Positions 27,587 through 34,617 of a stretch of DNA of 45,476 nt are shown piece by piece. Numbering within the stretch: position 1 is the stretch's first letter; every line of letters starts with the position of its first letter. The stretch is from sequence record PQ429079.1. The stretch is one strand, 5' to 3'. This stretch comes from Escherichia phage vB_VIPECOTPH05A. Below the pieces are notes generated by a model that worked only from the letters and a program-made list of their open reading frames with translations, was not told the origin of the DNA and made no database searches. The position numbers and the translations under genes are program-made.

Positions 27587-28068
27587 ATTCGTGGAAACGT
27601 TGATTGCGCGGTTCCGTAGGCTTTAAGGAAGCAATTAAGCCCGTCGCCATAACAACCATACAAATCCGGCAGATTGCTAACAAGGCACTGGTTATATTCA
27701 TCCTGGAACGGCGATTTCTCGGCGGTTGCCGTGAAGGTAATCGTCCAGTTAATGCCGTCTTCGGTGGACTCCGCGATGGTGGATGTAATTGTTACCTGGT
27801 AATCCTCAATGCCCATGCCGAAGTCGTGCGCCATCCAGAAACTTGAAGCACCACCATCGACTTTCTCAATGAACGACAGAAACGCCTGTCGCCCTAGTGC
27901 TGAGGTAATCAGGGTTACGCTTATCGGGAACACGTCGTAATACGTGTCACGGCCCTGACGCACCCCGCCACCGGCTAAATCTACACTCCAGACGTTGTTA
28001 CGTCTGGTCATTGAGTAGCCTTTTGATACCACCGGCTTAAGGCTACGTGGAAAGTATAAGTCGCTCAT
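27568..28068 (-). CDS. minor tail protein (lambda M-like)
   Basis: FLSFIEKVDGGASSFWM resembles lambda gpM ESFLEEHGGWKSFLW; follows tape measure. Confidence 0.5.
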   Translation of the reverse strand: MSDLYFPRSLKPVVSKGYSMTRRNNVWSVDLAGGGVRQGRDTYYDVFPISVTLITSALGRQAFLSFIEKVDGGASSFWMAHDFGMGIEDYQVTITSTIAESTEDGINWTITFTATAEKSPFQDEYNQCLVSNLPDLYGCYGDGLNCFLKAYGTAQSTFPRIWDPMQ

Positions 28069-30395
28069 TATTTAAACCCCGGCGCATTTCTTGTGGCCTT
28101 GCGGGCCTTGCTAATCTTACTGTTGCTGTTCTGCAAAGAGGCAGCCACCTGCTCTTCTATGATGATGCGCAAACGGCCTTCGTCATCCTGCTCGGTAGAT
28201 ACGTTGCCAATCTGACTCGATGTGTTATTTACAATGGTAACATTAGATGGGCCAGAAGAAGACCCATTTTGCCCCATAATTTCTTTCATCTGCTGCGCAG
28301 TTCGTACGCGCGATGCACCAGCAGGCATGATAACTTCTGGTTTACCGCGTTCGGCGATGGTGGAAGCCTGCCCCGCAGATAACTGACCGCCCTGTTCACG
28401 TGCGGACCTGATAGCGGAAACCTGCGCCATACCTGCCCCAACGGCAGCGGCAGCGGCTACAGGGGCCAGGAACGGGCCAACTACAGGGATAGCCGCCGTG
28501 GACTTGTATGCCTCAATAGCTGCGGTGTACGTGGCTATAGTGGCCTGTACGATAGCGAATGCCTTATACGCGCCAGAAGCCTCACCCAACGCAGACCCGA
28601 TGTTTGAGGCCATGTTGCCAAAGGCCGTTGCCGTTGCGTCGGCGCGCTTCGTAGCATACTGCTCATTGATAGCGTTAAGCGCCGCCTGATACTGTTCCTC
28701 GTTAATAAGCCCCTGTTCACGGTATTTATCTGCGACCGCCAGTTTCTGCTGTTCCTGGATGTCGAGAAGCTCAAGCTCAGCGGCGTTCTGGCCCATAATC
28801 TGAGCCATGAAGTCGTCGCCTTTCTGCTGCTTTTCCTGCTGCTCTTTTCTTTTCTTATCCAGTTCTTCCTGTCTGGCCTGCTCGGCTGTGAGCATAATTT
28901 GAGTTTTGGCGTTTTCATACTGCTGCTGGCTTATCGTTCCGGCGCGGTTGAACTCCTCCAGTTTCGCCAGTTTCTGTTCTTCTGCCGCCGTGATACGAGA
29001 AATTTCGTCTCCAGTAGTGCGGTCGACAGTAGCCAGGAAATCTTCGGCGGCTTTCTTCTGACGTTGCGCCGCCGTTTCTTCACGTTTGGCCTGCGCCGCC
29101 AGACGTTTCTCGTTCGATTTAGCCTCGCGGTCTGCCTTCGCTTTTTCGGTAGCGTCGATGCGGGCGATGTCTTGCTGCGCTTCCGCGTCACGGGCAGCGT
29201 TATACGCGGCTATCTGTTCTTTGGTGACAGCTTCACGTTTAGCGAACGCCTGCTTATCCAGTTCAGCTTGTGCCCGGATGCGCTCACGGTCGCTTAAGAT
29301 GGCAATTTGCTGATTCTTGACGATAGCTTCGTTCTGCTCCTGGAACCTCTGTGTGGTTGAGTTAACGTTACGTCCAAGATTCTTTTGGGCCTCTGCCGCC
29401 GCGTTTGCTGACTTCTCTGCGTTCTCCAGTGCCGTGGCGTTCTTATTGGCATTGTCAGTCAGGCGGATAAGTTCCGGGTTCAACTGTTTTGTGTTACCGA
29501 GCCAGTCGGTAAACACATCGGCGATACGACGGGCATTCTCGGCGGTTGGTTCTTTGTTAAACGCACTCTGCGCCGCTATCATCTCCAGCGCCTGGTCACG
29601 GTTAACTCCGAACTTACTGCTAAGCTCCGCGATATTCTGCGCCAGCATGTTGACGCCCACGATGTTACCTTCGTAAGTGCCGCCGAGTTTTTCTAACGTG
29701 TCGCCTACATCCGCACCCTTAGATACCAGTGCATCGTACTGACTAATAGCCGATGTCGTGGAGGCTTTCCACGTTTCCCACGATTCGGCATCTTCACGAA
29801 CAGCTTTAGCGGTTTGCTGTGCGATAAGGTCCGCGTTAGCCTTAGCCAGAGCAAGCTGAGTCTCCGCCGCCTCCCTACTGATTTGGGTAAGCTGGATAAG
29901 GCCGTCTGTCAGTTCGAGGGAGCCAGATGCCGTTTGCTGGAAAGTATCTTTTAACTGTTTCTGTGCGGCTTCGAGGTCTTTTGAACTGCCTTCTGCTTCG
30001 GTTAGCGATTTGTACAGTACCCCGCCAACAGCCGACGCTAGCGCGATTACCGCTCCAAGTACAGCACCCCCCGGTCCGAAGGCACCTGCAAGCTGGGAGC
30101 CTTGTTGCCCTATCGCTACGAATGCGGACGTGCCGGACTGCAACTGGACGACCATGTCCTGTACCTGGAAGCCCACCTGCCCGGCGGCGTTACGGAACTT
30201 GGCAAAACCGTCGGACGCGGCTTTAGAGGTAGCGGTGTTAACTTTATTAACATCCGGAGTTAGTTTGTTTACAGATGCGTCCGCCCGGTCTGCGGATGCC
30301 GCCATAGCGTCAAGCTGTTTGGCGGCGACGTCAGCCCCTTCAGTTTTTACTCTGGCGATTAGGGAAGCCGTATCAGCCATCTTCTCTGCCCTCAA
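28068..30395 (-). CDS. tail tape measure protein
   Basis: 775 aa, Ala/Gln/Glu-rich coiled-coil; C-terminal hydrophobic/Gly-rich region; downstream of G/GT chaperones. Confidence 0.8.
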   Translation of the reverse strand: MRAEKMADTASLIARVKTEGADVAAKQLDAMAASADRADASVNKLTPDVNKVNTATSKAASDGFAKFRNAAGQVGFQVQDMVVQLQSGTSAFVAIGQQGSQLAGAFGPGGAVLGAVIALASAVGGVLYKSLTEAEGSSKDLEAAQKQLKDTFQQTASGSLELTDGLIQLTQISREAAETQLALAKANADLIAQQTAKAVREDAESWETWKASTTSAISQYDALVSKGADVGDTLEKLGGTYEGNIVGVNMLAQNIAELSSKFGVNRDQALEMIAAQSAFNKEPTAENARRIADVFTDWLGNTKQLNPELIRLTDNANKNATALENAEKSANAAAEAQKNLGRNVNSTTQRFQEQNEAIVKNQQIAILSDRERIRAQAELDKQAFAKREAVTKEQIAAYNAARDAEAQQDIARIDATEKAKADREAKSNEKRLAAQAKREETAAQRQKKAAEDFLATVDRTTGDEISRITAAEEQKLAKLEEFNRAGTISQQQYENAKTQIMLTAEQARQEELDKKRKEQQEKQQKGDDFMAQIMGQNAAELELLDIQEQQKLAVADKYREQGLINEEQYQAALNAINEQYATKRADATATAFGNMASNIGSALGEASGAYKAFAIVQATIATYTAAIEAYKSTAAIPVVGPFLAPVAAAAAVGAGMAQVSAIRSAREQGGQLSAGQASTIAERGKPEVIMPAGASRVRTAQQMKEIMGQNGSSSGPSNVTIVNNTSSQIGNVSTEQDDEGRLRIIIEEQVAASLQNSNSKISKARKATRNAPGFK

Positions 30396-31151
30396 ATATT
30401 CCGTCTAAGCCCATGATAACCTCGGCTTCGAACAAACTTATGCCGTAACCGGCGACATCGCGAAACGCAGCCAAATCTTGCCATTTGAGCGCATCGCGCG
30501 GGATTATAACGATAGTATCATCTGTTTCGCGCTGTAGGAATTTAATGGCCCGGTATTTCTCGAACACGTCGATAAGAGAAACGGGGCATTCCGGCCCCGT
30601 CGCTTCTTTCATCTGCGGTTCTTTAATCACGCCCATTGCAATCAAAGCCGCCTGGTGTCCCGCCGCGATGTCGTCGAATTGCTTACGTTTGTGGCGGTCG
30701 ACAAAGCACCATTGCGCAAATTCATACAGCGCTTTTACTTTTCCGAGAGTTTCTCGCGGCTATCGGTGTGGTGCTTAACTACAGCCTCCGCCAACCCACT
30801 GTACTGGTCGAACAGGTTAGCCAGCGCCTCTTTACTGAACGGCTCATCGAAGGACCAACCGGTGACGATTTCCACGGCGAGCTGCTTGTTCAGGTCCATA
30901 ACCCGCCAGCCCTTCTCATCGTTATAGCGCGCCCAGTTATTCAATGCCTCACACTCTTTATCTAACGGCGCAAGTTCTTCCGTAAGGCGTCGAATTGCCG
31001 TTGTGTAGGCGCGGCCTGCTCGAACGCCCGCATCGCAATCGGGGCCAATGACCTGCAGCCATTCGCCAGAGTCTTTTCCGCTAGGCAGAAGGATTGGCAT
31101 TTTAGTACCGGCGGCGTGACGGTCGGCAAAATAGAAATCAGAAAGTTTCAT
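30373..31151 (-). CDS. tail assembly chaperone frameshift product (GT-like, via -1 frameshift near 30738)
   Basis: -1 frame is open from the G stop region through 30373; ORF-track 30373..30645 is its 3' part. Confidence 0.5.
30735..31151 (-). CDS. tail assembly chaperone (G-like)
   Basis: 138-aa ORF upstream of tape measure, ends ...SEK at slippery GAA-AAG-TAA. Confidence 0.6.
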   Translation of the reverse strand: MKLSDFYFADRHAAGTKMPILLPSGKDSGEWLQVIGPDCDAGVRAGRAYTTAIRRLTEELAPLDKECEALNNWARYNDEKGWRVMDLNKQLAVEIVTGWSFDEPFSKEALANLFDQYSGLAEAVVKHHTDSREKLSEK

Positions 31152-31258
31152 TCTTTAGTCCTTTGGTTAAGAGGTTACTGGTTATGGTTAATGCGCCAGG
31201 CGGGAACCACCCGCTTTTCGTGTGCGACACTAGGCGCAAACTTATTCTAACACACTAC

Positions 31259-31287
31259 TTGCACACCCCAATATAATAGGGTACTAT
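31259..31287 (+). promoter_or_regulatory. sigma70-like promoter (TTGCAC-N17-TACTAT) for opposite-strand island
   Basis: drives plus-strand genes from 31316 inside the minus-strand tail operon. Confidence 0.5.
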
Positions 31288-31315
31288 TCACCCGTAACTT
31301 ACTGAGGAAACAATT

Positions 31316-31642
31316 ATGCGTAAATTAGTATTAGCTCTGGGGTTTATGTCTTTTGCTACTTTTGGGACTCCGTGTGAACAGGTATTTAGCGAATCTGTTC
31401 TTATGACTTCTGGTGTGCTTGAGAAAGCCGACCCTACTATTGTAAAGGCATTTAAGGACTCTACCGTTCGCGAGTGTGAAGCCGCCGTAGAGGTTGGTAA
31501 ATCTGGTCTACCTCCGCAAGCAGTAACATACACGGTGATACGTTCGGTAGAGAAAAACGGAGACGCGTTTTACAGCCTGCTGACAGCCACCCGCCTGCAA
31601 ATGGTAATGGCTGGATGGGCGATAGGCGCGGAAAGTAAATAG
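31316..31642 (+). CDS. secreted/periplasmic small protein (signal peptide)
   Basis: N-terminus MRKLVLALGFMSFATFG is signal-peptide-like; RBS GAGGAAA. Confidence 0.55.
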   Translation: MRKLVLALGFMSFATFGTPCEQVFSESVLMTSGVLEKADPTIVKAFKDSTVRECEAAVEVGKSGLPPQAVTYTVIRSVEKNGDAFYSLLTATRLQMVMAGWAIGAESK

Positions 31643-31708
31643 TCGCCTTTATTTAAAGGAACGCACTGTGGTTAAATAGGACAAATCCTAAACGCGAGGA
31701 AGTAAAGC

Positions 31709-32839
31709 ATGGCCCAGATTAAAATAACCGACGAACAGTTACAGGAAGAATTGAACGCCGGAACAAAGATTATCGACATATCCCGTAAATACGGCATCTC
31801 AGACCGAGTTATTCGTATCCGTAAAGCGAAGCTGGCGAAGAAAGGCGTAGGTCACGGTCGTGACGTTAGCCATCTTGTCCCGGACGGCTACAAGATTAAA
31901 GGCACGTCGTCACTTGTTGACGAGTTCGGCAACACTAAACTGCAATGGGTTAAGACTGATACCGACGCCGAACGTCAGGTTGAATTGATGAAAGCCGTAA
32001 TTGAAGGCATGAAGTCAGAGATTACGCCCGTTGCGCCTGTTAAAGCTGTTCGCGCCAAACGCGACGACAAGCTACTCAATCTTTACACGGTATCTGATTT
32101 CCATCTCGGTATGCTGGCATGGGCTGATGAGAGCGGAGACGACTGGGACATGAAGATTGCAGAAGACCTGTTCTCCCGATGGTTCGACGCGGCGTTCCAG
32201 AAAGCACCGGATGCAGGAACAGGAGTTATTAACCTTCTGGGCGACCTCGCTCACTTCGATAGTCTGGATGCGGTTACACCTGCAAGTGGTCATGTTCTTG
32301 ACGCGGACACGCGCTATCAGAAACTTGTACGCTACATGATTCGTATGGTCCGCCGTGTCGTTGATATGGCTCTGGTTAAACATAAAAATGTTCGCTTGCT
32401 TATCGTGCAAGGGAATCACGACGAAAGTGGCATGATTTGGTTGGCTGAGATGTTCAGCACGCTGTACGACAATGAGCCGCGTGTGTTCGTCGATACGTCG
32501 CCGGATGTTTACAAGATGGTGCAACACGGCAAAACGACGCTGTTCTTCCATCACGGACATAAAGCACGCTTCGACGCTATCGAACCGGTTATGATTGCCA
32601 AGTTCCGCAAAGCGTTCGGCGAGAGCGTTTATAGCTACGCCCACGTAGGCCACCTGCACCACCAGAAAATTGTAGAAAGCCGTAACATGATTGTTGAGCA
32701 ACACCGCACCCTGGCGGCTAAAGACGCCTACGCCTCTCGCGGCGGATGGATGTCAGGTCGTAGTGCAAATGTAATTACTTATAGCGCCGAATATGGTGAG
32801 GTCGCACGTTTAACTATTTCACCGGAGATGCTGGGATGA
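31709..32839 (+). CDS. HTH-fused calcineurin-like metallophosphoesterase
   Basis: N-terminal HTH (IIDISRKYGISDRVIRIRKAK); phosphoesterase motifs SDFHLG, GDLAHFD, QGNHDE, HHGH, GHLHH. Confidence 0.6.
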   Translation: MAQIKITDEQLQEELNAGTKIIDISRKYGISDRVIRIRKAKLAKKGVGHGRDVSHLVPDGYKIKGTSSLVDEFGNTKLQWVKTDTDAERQVELMKAVIEGMKSEITPVAPVKAVRAKRDDKLLNLYTVSDFHLGMLAWADESGDDWDMKIAEDLFSRWFDAAFQKAPDAGTGVINLLGDLAHFDSLDAVTPASGHVLDADTRYQKLVRYMIRMVRRVVDMALVKHKNVRLLIVQGNHDESGMIWLAEMFSTLYDNEPRVFVDTSPDVYKMVQHGKTTLFFHHGHKARFDAIEPVMIAKFRKAFGESVYSYAHVGHLHHQKIVESRNMIVEQHRTLAAKDAYASRGGWMSGRSANVITYSAEYGEVARLTISPEMLG

Positions 32840-33036
32840 AAGACATGTATGAATGCACCGAGGTAAGTCCGTATGCAGAGAAAAATGGGTTCGAAGTAGG
32901 TGCGGTGTACGAAGGAGTCACCCTAGAGAATGGCGATGTAAGAATGTATTCGCCTAAATATCGCAGCTTCTTTGAAATAGGCAACATTAACGAGTCAGGC
33001 ATAGCCAGATTTAAGAGAGTTAACAGTGACAAATAA
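32836..33036 (+). CDS. hypothetical protein
   Basis: 66-aa ORF, ATGA-coupled to the phosphoesterase gene. Confidence 0.4.
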   Translation: MKDMYECTEVSPYAEKNGFEVGAVYEGVTLENGDVRMYSPKYRSFFEIGNINESGIARFKRVNSDK

Positions 33037-33256
33037 ATACAACCGCACAATGACAAACACCTACGGCAGCACTATGACTGTAGACGTTTACGATGTACTA
33101 CGCGCATTCGATATACGCGACCCGGCGTTACAGCACGCATTGAAGAAGTTATTGTGCATGGGTCTTCGCGGCCACAAAGATACCGGGACAGACTTAGCGG
33201 AAGCAATTGAAAGTCTGGAGAAGTTACGGGAGTACAGGAGTAATATTGATGAGTAA
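33026..33256 (+). CDS. hypothetical protein
   Basis: 76-aa ORF. Confidence 0.4.
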   Translation: MTNKYNRTMTNTYGSTMTVDVYDVLRAFDIRDPALQHALKKLLCMGLRGHKDTGTDLAEAIESLEKLREYRSNIDE

Positions 33257-33422
33257 GAATGTAATGAAAACAATATACATAATCCGCGTATACGACAAAG
33301 AATGGGACGAGTGGAATGATATCTATGCTGTAAGTAGCCGGGAAGATGCGTTAGATGAATATTCACGGCTTCGGGATAAAGGAGAACTCGTTAACTTCTA
33401 CCCTATGCAATTGAAGGAATAA
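33249..33422 (+). CDS. hypothetical protein (57 aa)
   Basis: ORF 33207..33422; likely ATG at 33249 with AGGAG RBS. Confidence 0.4.
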   Translation: MSKNVMKTIYIIRVYDKEWDEWNDIYAVSSREDALDEYSRLRDKGELVNFYPMQLKE

Positions 33423-33452
33423 GAAAAAGGCCCCGTTAGGGGCCTTAGTTTT
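33422..33452. terminator. bidirectional rho-independent terminator
   Basis: stem AGGCCCC/GGGGCCT flanked by A5 and T-rich runs, between island and major tail gene. Confidence 0.7.
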
Positions 33453-34617
33453 ATACGTAACTAATACGTTGAATTACGATGGACGACTGGTACTGATTGC
33501 CTGTGGACTGTCCTTCTATGCTCTGAGTGATTGACTCAGGCCCGCCAATCTCTGGCGTAACCGCCGTAAGTTCCGCACGTTTCAAACTGAAAGACATAGC
33601 CCCGTTTACCCCCGCCAGAATAGAGTTAATCTCTACCTGCTGTTCGTTGATAAACTTCTGAATCATCACCATGTCGTACAGCTTGCCGGAGATAGAGAAG
33701 GTGTTAGCCGCGCGTCCACGTTCCACGAACGCCACGCTACTGTTGCCGAGTTCGAACTGCGCGGATGCGCTGTTGTCGTTGGTGATGGTCAGAGTATCGC
33801 AACGCAACGGCGTAGAACCGTCGAACACAGACACATCTACGGATGAGAACGGCTCGTCACCAAACGTAACAGAGGAGAAGTCGGAACCAGACGGCGCCGC
33901 GGTAAGAATCTCCTGGCTGCGCCCGATGAACGGGAAGCTGCCCGTCACCATCGCGTTAACGGCCTGTTCAACAGTGAAACCAGAAACTTCCACGCCTTTG
34001 GTAAGCGTGTACGCGTCTGTCCCGCCGCACTGGCCCTTGTACCAGGTGAGAATAGAGAACGTCTTACACTGGCTGCCTGTTTCCAGTTTGTCGCCGGTCT
34101 TAGCCGCGGTAGTAGCAGTCTCGGTGATCAGAGTGTGTTGAATACCTGCACCAGTTACCACCAGTGCCTCTACCGCAGTAACAATAAACGGTTTAGCGTT
34201 ATCGCCGGTTAAGCCAGTAAACGCAATCAGGTCGCCTACTTCCACACCGTCAGTAATAAAGCTACCTTCGGCACGGGTGAACGTCTTGCCCACCGGTGCG
34301 ACGGTAATCGACAGCCCCGACAGAGAAACACCGGATTGCCACGTAGAGCCTAAAGCACCCGCCAGCCAGTCGTCCTGGCTTTTAGAGCTAAGCTCGACCG
34401 CGTATTCACCGCTAACCTGTTTGTTACCGGTTCGAATGGATGTAGTTTCACGGCTGCCGTCGAGTTCGTTGGAGGTCAGCGCATCGCGGGTTACCGCAGG
34501 AACACCGCCCGTATTGCGCAGCGGCGACCAGGCAGGGTTGGCTGGGGTTACGCCCGGGGTCACTTCCGCCACATAGAATTGCGCTGTATTCGCGCCCTTA
34601 AAAGGAGTTGTAGCCAT
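33451..34617 (-). CDS. major tail protein
   Basis: 388-aa Thr/Ser/Gly-rich protein between tail-terminator-like and chaperone genes. Confidence 0.6.
   Translation of the reverse strand: MATTPFKGANTAQFYVAEVTPGVTPANPAWSPLRNTGGVPAVTRDALTSNELDGSRETTSIRTGNKQVSGEYAVELSSKSQDDWLAGALGSTWQSGVSLSGLSITVAPVGKTFTRAEGSFITDGVEVGDLIAFTGLTGDNAKPFIVTAVEALVVTGAGIQHTLITETATTAAKTGDKLETGSQCKTFSILTWYKGQCGGTDAYTLTKGVEVSGFTVEQAVNAMVTGSFPFIGRSQEILTAAPSGSDFSSVTFGDEPFSSVDVSVFDGSTPLRCDTLTITNDNSASAQFELGNSSVAFVERGRAANTFSISGKLYDMVMIQKFINEQQVEINSILAGVNGAMSFSLKRAELTAVTPEIGGPESITQSIEGQSTGNQYQSSIVIQRISYV

What the first reader, a model, noticed from the sequence alone, without database searches (positions are those of the whole stretch)
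30373..31151. Programmed -1 frameshift joining tail assembly chaperone G to T
The G-like ORF ends ...CTC TCG GAA AAG TAA (stop at 30735-30737). The -1 frame is open from there through 30373, so slippage on GAAAAG would give a fusion of about 259 aa. The position directly upstream of the tape measure gene matches the conserved G/GT arrangement of long-tailed phages.
Basis: partly seen in the sequence, partly recalled or inferred. Interest (0 to 1): 0.4.

Follow-up and report, generated by a model that had tools for sequence, protein, structure and literature searches.

The report
Tail chaperone G-T programmed frameshift
This is the usual -1 ribosomal frameshift that lets a long-tailed phage make a short and a long tail-assembly chaperone from one gene pair; it is already annotated in a sister phage, but it uses a minimal slip site beside the stop codon and what looks like an undescribed long-range RNA helix just downstream.

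Summary
On the minus strand a 138-aa chaperone gene (31151..30735) ends CTC TCG GAA AAG TAA. The -1 frame is open from 30759 to a TGA at 30375-30373, which overlaps the tape measure start. A shift on A_AAG gives a 259-aa fusion.

- All 68 distinct relatives end N_NNA_AAG_UAR with about 120 open -1 codons.
- Codon-position variability switches frame exactly at the stop.
- The first 34 codons of the T part are conserved in protein sequence but have no conserved start codon.
- Pfam assigns both halves to tail-chaperone families, and PHROG 15027 is a 259-position profile that spans both.

The window is a Kagunavirus about 95% identical to phage K1H. RefSeq already joins the two K1H ORFs, so the frameshift itself is known, though untested, and most other records annotate two genes.

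What seems new is the signal. The slip site is non-canonical and abuts the stop. Five nucleotides downstream begins a 16-position helix (14 Watson-Crick pairs, one G-U, one mismatch). Its 3' arm lies 172 nt away in this clade and about 115 nt away in Jerseyvirus-type relatives. The helix is supported by troughs in synonymous variation and by compensatory changes. Its role as a frameshift stimulator is inferred, not shown.

The parts
30735..31151 (-). Gene G: tail assembly chaperone, 138 aa, including its TAA stop (30737-30735)
   Evidence: ORF list and translation. Pfam PF08748 Phage_TAC_4, 35.9 bits against a cut-off of 21.1. Matches positions 1-138 of phrog_15027, E = 1.2e-65.
30738..30744 (-). 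Shift site G_GAA_AAG. The conserved core is A_AAG (30741..30738), the last sense codon of G.
   Evidence: Sequence. AAAG followed by TA[AG] is invariant in 68 distinct relatives. The heptamers seen are GGAAAAG 47, CGCAAAG 9, AGCAAAG 5, GGTAAAG 4, GGCAAAG 2 and GGGAAAG 1. This is the only in-frame Z_ZZN motif in the overlap.
30738..30759 (-). Overlap window in which both the 0 frame and the -1 frame are open (22 nt). The shift must occur here.
   Evidence: In some relatives the window is only 16 nt.
30373..30738 (-). T segment, read in the -1 frame from GTA (30738-30736) to TGA (30375-30373). It is 121 aa and is made only as the C-terminal part of the 259-aa G-T fusion.
   Evidence: Translation. 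Pfam PF23812 Phage_TAC_18, 64.5 bits against a cut-off of 27. Matches positions 139-259 of phrog_15027, E = 4e-61. The protein is conserved from residue 1. There is no conserved start codon.
30717..30732 (-). 5' arm of the long-range RNA helix (GCGCUGUAUGAAUUUG). It starts 5 nt after the AAG codon.
   Evidence: Synonymous sites are invariant here. The helix appears in the minimum-energy and centroid folds. RNAalifold predicts it independently. Ensemble pairing probability is about 1.0.
30529..30544 (-). 3' arm of the long-range helix (UAAAUUCCUACAGCGC), 172 nt downstream, inside T codons 65-70
   Evidence: This is the second of the only two troughs in synonymous variation in the clade. CAGCGC is invariant in the first 16 clade-A sequences aligned and exact in 19 of the 21 clade-A representatives, the other two carrying a G-U or a single terminal mismatch. 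Duplex energy with the 5' arm is -18.3 kcal/mol.
28068..30380 (-). Tape measure protein gene (770 aa from the ATG at 30380). Its start overlaps the T stop by 8 nt.
   Evidence: phrog_1538, E = 3e-198. The layout is the same in K1H, Bas73 and Shashou.

Best explanation
Most ribosomes that translate gene G (31151..30738) terminate at UAA and release the 138-aa chaperone G. A minority slip back one nucleotide when tRNA-Lys decodes the last sense codon, re-pairing from AAG to AAA within G_GAA_AAG. They then read GUA AAA GCG CUG... in the -1 frame as far as the TGA at 30375-30373 and make a 259-aa G-T fusion. T has no start codon of its own and exists only as this fusion.

I infer two features that raise the slippage rate on this weak tetranucleotide site. 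The first is the stop codon immediately 3' of AAG, in a non-U +4 context, which should give a slow-to-decode A site. The second is a stable long-range RNA helix. Its 5' arm begins 5 nt after AAG, which places it at the ribosome's mRNA entrance when GAA and AAG occupy the P and A sites. Its 3' arm lies 172 nt downstream inside the T coding sequence.

By analogy with lambda gpG/gpGT (not tested here), the G part would coat the tape measure protein and the T part would recruit the tail tube protein. The frameshift frequency would set the G to G-T ratio needed for correct tail assembly.

Shown here: the sequence anatomy, its conservation, the frame switch, the family membership of both halves, and the covariation of the helix. 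Inferred: that slippage occurs and how often, that the helix and the stop codon stimulate it, and what the proteins do.
For: Anatomy.

The same holds for 68 distinct sequences after a motif scan and for Shashou, fBC-Eco01, SCS44, SETP7, Ent2 and Kenya-K26.

Frame switch: column entropy by codon phase is 0.57/0.51/1.35 before the stop and 0.60/1.32/0.62 after it. The wobble position therefore moves to the -1 frame at the stop.

No independent start: the T frame is conserved as V-x-A-L-Y-x-F/Y-A-x-W...FD-x-I..GH from its first codon. No start codon is conserved in its first 34 codons, and 5 of 30 representatives have none in the first 50.

Family: Phage_TAC_4 for G and Phage_TAC_18 for T. phrog_15027, 'tail assembly chaperone', is a 259-position profile matched at 1-138 by G and 139-259 by T. 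The tape measure gene follows directly. RefSeq NC_027994 (K1H, 94.6% nucleotide identity) annotates ORF19A plus a joined ORF19B. Distant G homologues at 30-35% identity carry in-frame canonical heptamers in the same overlap: T_TTT_TTC, A_AAT_TTT and T_TTG_GGC.

Precedent for the site: A_AAG is a documented -1 shift tetramer in E. coli, and NNA_AAG sites are used in B. subtilis cdd and IS1222 (PMC5009743).

Helix:
- Of 27 invariant residues that have four or more synonymous codons, only GTA, GCG and CTG just after the shift have invariant codons.
- The only two troughs in synonymous variation are the two arms.
- The helix is in the minimum-energy and centroid folds of the window sequence, z = -2.5.
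- RNAalifold finds it independently in both clades.
- In this clade 88.5% of cells are paired, against 19-51% for slid controls, and the covariation score exceeds all 500 shuffles.
- Ensemble pairing probability is about 1.0 in 18 of 21 representatives of this clade.
- Out-of-sample check: the Jerseyvirus/Shashou types changed the 5' arm to GCGUUGY and the partner at +128 to RCAACGC. One pair is C-G in 8 sequences and U-A in 5, with no mismatches. The covariation score is 0.317 against 0.172 +/- 0.027 for shuffles.
Against: There is no experimental evidence. I found no mass spectrometry, reporter assay or ribosome profiling for any member of this phage subfamily.

G_GAA_AAG is not a canonical X_XXY_YYZ heptamer. 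In relatives the 5' codon varies (GAA, GUA, GCA, GGA), so re-pairing of the P-site tRNA is not conserved. One genome paper states there is 'no canonical slippery sequence' in this subfamily (PMC6776780), and most GenBank records annotate two separate genes.

No local hairpin or pseudoknot is conserved within 85 nt downstream, and no upstream Shine-Dalgarno-like element is conserved (sequence block printed).

The helix closes a very large loop (172 nt). In the +128 clade it is thermodynamically less dominant, with probability of at least 0.7 in only 3 of 8 representatives. Its link to frameshifting rests on position and spacing alone.
Confidence: 0.88

Rival explanations
1. The frameshift is real but depends only on A_AAG plus the adjacent stop codon. 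The conserved long-range helix has another function, such as mRNA stability or processing, control of tape measure translation, or keeping the rarely translated T region folded.
For: Lambda G/GT is generally described as needing little beyond its slippery heptamer (my own knowledge). The loop is unusually large at 172 nt, and the partner position differs between clades. The helix is less dominant thermodynamically in the +128 clade. No experiment links the helix to frameshifting.
Against: In every clade the 5' arm starts exactly 5 nt after the shift codon, while the 3' arm has moved between about +128 and about +203. What is kept fixed is the helix base next to the shift site, at the spacing typical of bacterial -1 frameshift stimulators such as dnaX and the IS911 three-way junction (the latter is listed in the references of PMC4066793). 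A bare tetranucleotide site gives only marginal frameshifting without a stimulator (PMC4066793).
Confidence: 0.25
2. G and T are two separately translated genes. T would start at an internal codon (TTG 30645, ATG 30636 or GTG 30630) and give a protein of about 85-90 aa, as many GenBank records imply.
For: Bas73, phiSD1, Shashou, SETP7, Ent2 and others annotate a separate downstream CDS. An ATG at T codon 35 is present in most relatives.
Against: The 34 codons upstream of that ATG are strongly conserved as protein, and their wobble-position variation fits the -1 frame. Six of 30 representatives lack the codon-35 ATG, and 5 of those 6 have no start codon in the first 50 codons. Several of the annotated separate CDSs begin 6 nt after the G stop (locus 3672 in Bas73 and 1123 in L174-L179). 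In this window that position is CTG and in Shashou it is TTG, and the site is not conserved as a start codon across relatives. The PHROG family profile spans both halves contiguously.
Confidence: 0.05
3. The frame change arises from transcriptional slippage of RNA polymerase on the A run, or the locus is a sequencing error or a pseudogene of a single fused gene.
For: The window has four consecutive A residues at the junction.
Against: In many relatives the run is only three A residues (GCAAAG, GUAAAG), which is far shorter than the runs known to support transcriptional slippage (my own knowledge; review PMC5009743). The same two-frame arrangement with a stop at the same place occurs in 68 distinct sequences and more than 100 loci from independent assemblies. 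That rules out a sequencing error or a recent pseudogene.
Confidence: 0.02

Closest known systems
Phage lambda gpG / gpGT and the conserved tail-chaperone frameshift of long-tailed dsDNA phages (Levin et al. 1993; Xu et al. 2004; as summarised in PMC5009743)
   Same: Two overlapping ORFs lie immediately upstream of the tape measure gene. The second is in the -1 frame and has no start of its own. The shift occurs on a Lys AAG codon at the end of G. The short product is expected to be in excess and the long one rare. One relative (L042) even carries lambda's exact heptamer, G_GGA_AAG.
   Different: The heptamer here is G_GAA_AAG, which is not X_XXY_YYZ. The G stop codon directly abuts the shift codon in every relative. 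A long-range helix follows 5 nt downstream. A cassette on the opposite strand separates G from the tail tube gene. There is no detectable sequence similarity to lambda G or T; the Pfam families here are Phage_TAC_4 and Phage_TAC_18.
Escherichia phage K1H ORF19A / ORF19B (RefSeq NC_027994, APL42_gp22 / gp21)
   Same: It has 94.6% nucleotide identity over the locus, the same 417-nt G, and the same 779-nt span that is annotated as a two-part joined CDS called 'tail assembly chaperone'. This is the same feature in a sister phage.
   Different: It is only an annotation. No slip site, stimulator or experiment is recorded in what I could read. The original GenBank record (GU196278) and most related records do not carry the join.
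A_AAG tetranucleotide and NNA_AAG hexanucleotide -1 shift sites (B. subtilis cdd A_CGA_AAG; IS1222 G_CGA_AAG; synthetic constructs in E. coli)
   Same: The shift relies on tRNA-Lys re-pairing from AAG to AAA. The identity of the 5' codon modulates efficiency, and codons read by tRNAs with high wobble propensity favour it (PMC5009743). In this family the 5' codons are GAA, GUA, GCA and GGA.
   Different: Those cases use CGA as the 5' codon, and at least some have an upstream Shine-Dalgarno-like stimulator (my own knowledge). Here no such element is conserved, and the stop codon follows immediately.
E. coli dnaX and IS911 / IS3 -1 frameshift signals with 3' structures
   Same: The shift is on a Lys AAG codon in enterobacteria, followed after a 5-7-nt spacer by a stable RNA structure. 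The IS911 stimulator is a three-way junction, meaning a closing helix around internal stem-loops (Rettberg et al. 1999, listed in the references of PMC4066793).
   Different: The loop closed by the helix here is much larger (about 115 or 172 nt) and lies wholly within coding sequence. The slippery motif is a tetramer or imperfect heptamer rather than A_AAA_AAG. No upstream Shine-Dalgarno-like element was found.

Membership tests
Tail assembly chaperone G/GT programmed -1 frameshift of long-tailed phages | A pair of ORFs lies immediately upstream of the tape measure gene | tested here: met
   The T stop (30375-30373) overlaps the tape measure ATG (30380). The tape measure protein matches phrog_1538 with E = 3e-198.
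Tail assembly chaperone G/GT programmed -1 frameshift of long-tailed phages | The pair lies directly downstream of the major tail (tube) protein gene | tested here: not met
   The tail tube gene is 34617..33451. An opposite-strand cassette (about 31316..33056, containing an exonuclease/phosphoesterase homologue) and a 165-nt intergenic region lie between it and G. This is also the case in K1H, Bas73 and Shashou. It departs from the usual gene order but does not affect the mechanism.
Tail assembly chaperone G/GT programmed -1 frameshift of long-tailed phages | The second ORF is in the -1 frame, overlaps the end of the first, and has no start codon of its own | tested here: met
Tail assembly chaperone G/GT programmed -1 frameshift of long-tailed phages | A canonical X_XXY_YYZ slippery heptamer lies in the overlap | tested here: not met
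   The heptamer is G_GAA_AAG, and only the Z_ZZN tetramer A_AAG is present and conserved. Distant homologues do carry canonical heptamers. Xu et al. 2004 also accepted non-canonical sites (my own knowledge).
Tail assembly chaperone G/GT programmed -1 frameshift of long-tailed phages | The arrangement is conserved across relatives even though their sequences have diverged | tested here: met
   68 distinct sequences, with G identity down to 44%, plus 4 more distant homologues.
Tail assembly chaperone G/GT programmed -1 frameshift of long-tailed phages | Both halves belong to tail-assembly-chaperone protein families | tested here: met
   PF08748 and PF23812 both score above their gathering cut-offs. 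phrog_15027 spans both halves.
Tail assembly chaperone G/GT programmed -1 frameshift of long-tailed phages | Two products, G and G-T, are made at a fixed ratio; both are required for tail assembly and absent from virions | not testable with these tools
   This needs mass spectrometry or western blots of infected cells, plus genetics.
Bacterial -1 frameshift signals with a 3' RNA structure (dnaX / IS911 type) | A stable structure starts 5-9 nt after the shift site | tested here: met
   The helix starts 5 nt after AAG. Duplex energy is -18.3 kcal/mol, and ensemble probability is about 1.0 in the window sequence.
Bacterial -1 frameshift signals with a 3' RNA structure (dnaX / IS911 type) | The structure is maintained by compensatory changes | tested here: met
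   One pair is C-G in 8 sequences and U-A in 5, with no mismatches. Covariation scores exceed all 500 shuffles and all slid controls.
Bacterial -1 frameshift signals with a 3' RNA structure (dnaX / IS911 type) | An upstream Shine-Dalgarno-like stimulator is present | tested here: not met
   Positions -20 to -8 are variable and show no conserved GGAGG-like motif (sequence block printed).
Bacterial -1 frameshift signals with a 3' RNA structure (dnaX / IS911 type) | The structure increases frameshift efficiency | not testable with these tools
   This needs reporter assays with arm-disrupting and compensatory mutants.

The most novel reading that the evidence does not exclude
Guernseyvirinae (Kagunavirus, Jerseyvirus and relatives) may drive their G/GT frameshift with an undescribed type of signal. 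It would consist of a minimal A_AAG tetramer that is always the last sense codon before a UAR stop, and a long-range RNA helix whose 5' arm is fixed 5 nt downstream. The 3' arm has relocated during evolution between about +128 and about +203 within the T coding sequence. Because 0-frame ribosomes terminate at the shift site, the downstream RNA is mostly free of ribosomes and can hold such a large structure. This would also explain why annotators report 'no canonical slippery sequence' and why most of the roughly 500 related genome records split the gene.
Probability: 0.55. Interest if true: 0.5.

Novelty: already known. Interest (0 to 1): 0.3.

Why it matters
The frameshift itself is textbook biology for long-tailed phages. 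Its practical value here is for annotation. Most of the roughly 500 Kagunavirus and Jerseyvirus genome records, many of them phage-therapy candidates, list the T part as a separate 'hypothetical protein' with an implausible start. The evidence here says they should carry a joined 259-260-aa CDS.

For people who study recoding, the signal is moderately interesting. It is a natural, deeply conserved case of tetranucleotide A_AAG slippage beside a stop codon, paired with a covarying long-range helix whose partner has moved between clades. It would be easy to test in E. coli with reporters. It could also help frameshift predictors such as PRFect, which look for local structure within 50-100 nt and for a fixed list of motifs.

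Tried and rejected
- **Local stimulator:** RNAalifold on 98 nt from 16 diverse relatives, and a single-sequence fold (z = +0.29), found no conserved hairpin or pseudoknot within 85 nt of the site. This led to the search for distant partners.
- **Upstream Shine-Dalgarno-like stimulator:** none is conserved.
- **Rfam:** no family matches 30300-31200 at E <= 1.
- **PDB by sequence:** no relative of the fusion protein.
- **Large protein database searched with the fusion:** only G-length proteins were returned (142-181 aa, 53-54% query coverage). Gene callers do not make the fusion, so nothing was learned about T.
- **Literature:** there are no papers on a Kagunavirus or Jerseyvirus chaperone frameshift. 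The K1H/K1ind hit was irrelevant. The Jerseyvirinae proposal (PMID 25663216), cited in Shashou's CDS note, is not held in the library.
- **Motif scan of IMG/VR:** about 40% of the 119 hits were chance matches and had to be filtered by ORF architecture. Those loci were selected on GCGCTGT, so they say nothing about invariance of the 5' arm. The set found through the protein (45 of 45 with GCGCTGT) was itself biased towards two clades, as the Jerseyvirus variants later showed.
- **Rejected explanations:** +1 frameshift, because the +1 frame closes after 4 codons; reinitiation at the ATG 12 nt after the stop, because it is in the 0 frame; transcriptional slippage; and sequencing error.
- **Promoter and terminator scan of 30300-31700:** nothing above the shuffle expectation that bears on the finding.
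- **SS3e (L178):** its G region is broken in the record, so it was left out.
Full report
**What the window is.** The region is about 95% identical in nucleotide sequence to Escherichia phages AV104, SZH-1, K1H and the BASEL phages Bas70-76, and it matches 224 phage records overall. K1H is classified as Guernseyvirinae, genus Kagunavirus. The window is therefore a Kagunavirus-type siphophage genome.

**Checking the observation.** On the minus strand an ATG-initiated ORF runs from 31151 to 30735 (138 aa). It ends AAA CTC TCG GAA AAG TAA, with the stop at 30737-30735. In the -1 frame there is a TAG at 30762-30760, after which the frame is open from 30759 to TGA at 30375-30373. The two frames overlap for only 22 nt. 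The +1 frame closes after 4 codons. The T stop overlaps the ATG (30380) of a 770-aa protein that matches the tape measure family phrog_1538 with E = 3e-198. At this base composition, an open run of 128 codons has a probability of about 0.003. The only addition is that G is not next to the tail tube gene (34617..33451). A cassette on the opposite strand (about 31316..33056) and a 165-nt spacer lie between them. The gene order is the same in K1H, Bas73 and Shashou.

**Is the downstream frame translated as a fusion?** Four independent lines of evidence say yes.
- *Conservation.* A scan of IMG/VR with the G protein returned 50 loci. In all 44 that could be analysed and belong to this family (G identity 100% down to 44%), the gene ends NNA AAG TA[AG], the -1 frame stays open for 119-121 codons, and the +1 frame is closed. 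After a motif scan and filtering, 68 distinct sequences show the same arrangement. So do six GenBank phages fetched separately, including Jerseyvirus SETP7 and Ent2.
- *Frame switch.* Among 27 sequences clustered below 97% identity, column variability by codon phase is 0.57/0.51/1.35 bits in the body of G and 0.60/1.32/0.62 bits in the 90 nt after the stop. The wobble position therefore jumps to the -1 frame exactly at the stop.
- *No independent start.* The -1 frame is conserved as protein from its very first codon (V-x-A-L-Y-x-F/Y-A-x-W ... F-D-x-I ... G-H). No ATG, GTG or TTG is conserved in the first 34 codons. The common ATG at codon 35 is missing in 6 of 30 representatives, and 5 of those 6 have no start codon in the first 50 codons.
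- *Family.* G matches Pfam Phage_TAC_4 and the T part matches Phage_TAC_18, both above their curated cut-offs. PHROG 15027, 'tail assembly chaperone', is a 259-position profile that G matches at 1-138 and T at 139-259. The family was evidently built from fusion proteins with this same junction.

Four distant G homologues (30-35% identity) have the same G/-1 layout and carry textbook in-frame heptamers in the overlap: T_TTT_TTC, A_AAT_TTT and T_TTG_GGC. The wider family clearly uses -1 frameshifting.

**The slip site.** What is conserved is A_AAG followed immediately by UAA or UAG (27 and 41 of 68; UGA never occurs). The codon before it is G-N-A. The heptamers seen are GGAAAAG 47, CGCAAAG 9, AGCAAAG 5, GGTAAAG 4, GGCAAAG 2 and GGGAAAG 1. 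Only the last is canonical, and it is lambda's own heptamer. In some relatives the overlap is just 16 nt, which leaves A_AAG as the only possible site. A_AAG is a documented -1 shift tetramer in E. coli. NNA_AAG sites are used in B. subtilis cdd and in IS1222, and their efficiency depends on the wobble properties of the tRNA that reads the 5' codon (PMC5009743). Without a stimulator, such tetramers shift only marginally above background (PMC4066793). The base after the stop is A or C in 66 of 68 sequences. It is almost never U, and a U at that position reduces read-through of the stop in E. coli (abstract of PMC5289835, listed). The invariant adjacency of a stop in a non-optimal context fits the 'shifty stop' idea, in which a slowly decoded A site gives P-site tRNA-Lys time to slip. 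That is inference. Whether slippage happens with AAG in the A site (tandem, with GAA re-pairing to GGA through a G-U pair) or in the P site cannot be decided from sequence. The protein product is the same either way.

**A conserved long-range helix.** No local hairpin is conserved downstream. However, the seven bases GCGCUGU at +5 to +11 after the first base of the stop were invariant in all 45 distinct sequences found through the G protein. These bases include two wobble positions. Of 27 invariant residues that have four or more synonymous codons across G and T, only three have an invariant codon: GTA, GCG and CTG, all directly after the shift site.

A search for complements found UACAGCGC at +201 in the window and its clade, and at about +128 in a second clade. 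In the window the pairing is GCGCUGUAUGAAUUUG (30732..30717) with UAAAUUCCUACAGCGC (30544..30529). That is 15 pairs (one of them G-U) with one U-C mismatch, a duplex energy of -18.3 kcal/mol and a 172-nt loop. The helix closes both the minimum-energy and the centroid fold of the 226-nt region, with z = -2.5. Its ensemble probability is about 1.0 when +3 to +340 is folded freely, and this holds in 18 of 21 representatives of the clade. RNAalifold predicts the helix independently in both clades. In the window's clade (18 sequences below 95% identity), 88.5% of cells pair against 19-51% when the partner is slid. Three pairs show changes on both sides (U-A, C-G and G-C at one position), and the covariation score exceeds all 500 shuffles. 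A scan for synonymous-site variation finds only two troughs across the locus in that clade, and they are the two arms.

The best test came afterwards, from sequences that were not used to define the helix. Phage Shashou, fBC-Eco01 and SCS44 have GCGUUGC at +5, with the exact reverse complement GCAACGC at +128. Jerseyvirus SETP7 and Ent2 have GCGUUGU with ACAACGC at +128. In the combined alignment of 13 sequences, one pair is C-G in 8 and U-A in 5 with no mismatch. Five further pairs show double changes, and the covariation score is 0.317 against 0.172 +/- 0.027 for shuffles (0 of 500) and at most 0.115 for slid controls.

The helix is therefore a selected RNA structure. Its 5' arm always starts 5 nt after the shift codon, while the 3' arm sits at about +128 or about +203 depending on the clade. 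With GAA in the P site and AAG in the A site, the first base pair lies about 11-12 nt from the first P-site nucleotide, at the mRNA entrance of the ribosome. This is the geometry of the dnaX and IS911 stimulators (established knowledge; the IS911 stimulator is a three-way junction). That the helix stimulates frameshifting is my inference from position and spacing. No Rfam family matches the region.

**How it most likely works.** Most ribosomes terminate at UAA and release G. A few percent slip -1 on A_AAG and extend through T to give G-T, helped by the helix at the mRNA entrance and by the weak stop. The actual frequency is unknown. Because 0-frame ribosomes leave the message at the shift site, the T region is translated only rarely, which lets a structure spanning 120-190 nt form again between ribosomes. 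The roles of the proteins are taken from the lambda paradigm (PMC5009743) and were not tested here: G coats the tape measure protein, and the T domain recruits the tail tube protein.

**Comparison with what is known, and novelty.** This is a member of the conserved tail-chaperone frameshift system. RefSeq already annotates the same join in K1H (ORF19A and ORF19B), and PHROG 15027 encodes it. The frameshift is therefore already known, though only as an annotation. The annotation is inconsistent across records. Bas73, phiSD1, Shashou, SETP7, Ent2, fBC-Eco01 and SCS44 list a separate downstream gene, and the Shashou genome paper says there is 'no canonical slippery sequence' (PMC6776780). I found no description of the A_AAG-stop arrangement or of the long-range helix. 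The library is incomplete, however, and the Jerseyvirinae proposal cited in Shashou's CDS note could not be read.

**Verdict.** The finding is an ordinary, already annotated feature, so its interest is low to moderate. The moderate part comes from the non-canonical signal and the covarying long-range helix, which can be tested directly in E. coli.

Noticed in passing
window 31152-33450 (the region between G at 31151 and the tail tube gene at 33451..34617): The tail gene block on the minus strand is interrupted by a plus-strand cassette. It contains an unknown protein matching phrog_14165 (31316..31642), a homologue annotated variously as a DNA repair exonuclease or a phosphoesterase (31709..32839, phrog_704), and small ORFs up to about 33056. 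G, T and the tape measure gene therefore probably need their own promoter in the 165-nt spacer 31152-31315. A simple sigma-70 scan found none there. The layout is conserved in K1H, Bas73 and Shashou.
   Followed up: partly
window 30735-30737, and the same position in 68 relatives: The G stop is always UAA or UAG and never UGA, even though UGA would keep valine (GUG) as the first T codon. The base after the stop is A or C in 66 of 68 sequences. This suggests selection on the termination context or on the first -1-frame codon (GUA). No explanation was tested.
   Followed up: partly
window 30580-30601 (minus strand), inside the loop of the long-range helix: There is a strong hairpin, ACGGGGCC-GGAAU-GCCCCGU, followed by a U-rich stretch, and the terminator scan flags it. 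It encodes the conserved GPECP motif of T. It recurs in most relatives as GGGCCnGAnTGCCC, but it is absent from the SETP3-like lineage, which lacks that motif. It was not resolved whether it is an RNA element or only a by-product of the protein motif.
   Followed up: partly
L049, L051, L052, L053 (IMG/VR contigs; G homologues of 30-35% identity): Distant homologues of the same chaperone use canonical in-frame heptamers 7-58 nt before the G stop (T_TTT_TTC, A_AAT_TTT, T_TTG_GGC) instead of A_AAG next to the stop. The slip signal has therefore been replaced during the evolution of one protein family.
   Followed up: partly
L029, L151, L155 (relatives in the window's clade), about +334 from the G stop: In three relatives the thermodynamic ensemble prefers to pair the 5' arm with a site near +334, close to the end of T, rather than with the conserved +203 partner. 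This is probably a prediction artefact, but it was not examined.
   Followed up: no
L059 and L065, at +44, +122 and +203 from the G stop: These two relatives carry three copies of the CAGCGC partner hexamer inside T. One of them lies close to the +128 position used by the other clade. They could be an intermediate in the relocation of the 3' arm.
   Followed up: no
window 31288-31533 (minus strand): An 81-aa ORF with a hydrophobic, signal-peptide-like N-terminus overlaps the plus-strand gene 31316..31642 and has no PHROG match. Bas73 and Shashou annotate only a 30-aa ORF, on the strand opposite G, in the spacer upstream of G. It is probably not a gene.
   Followed up: no
L178 (Salmonella phage SS3e, NC_006940.2): In this older RefSeq record the G gene is split and truncated (annotated as 258 nt) and does not end at the family's A_AAG_UAR site. 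This probably reflects sequencing errors in the record.
   Followed up: no
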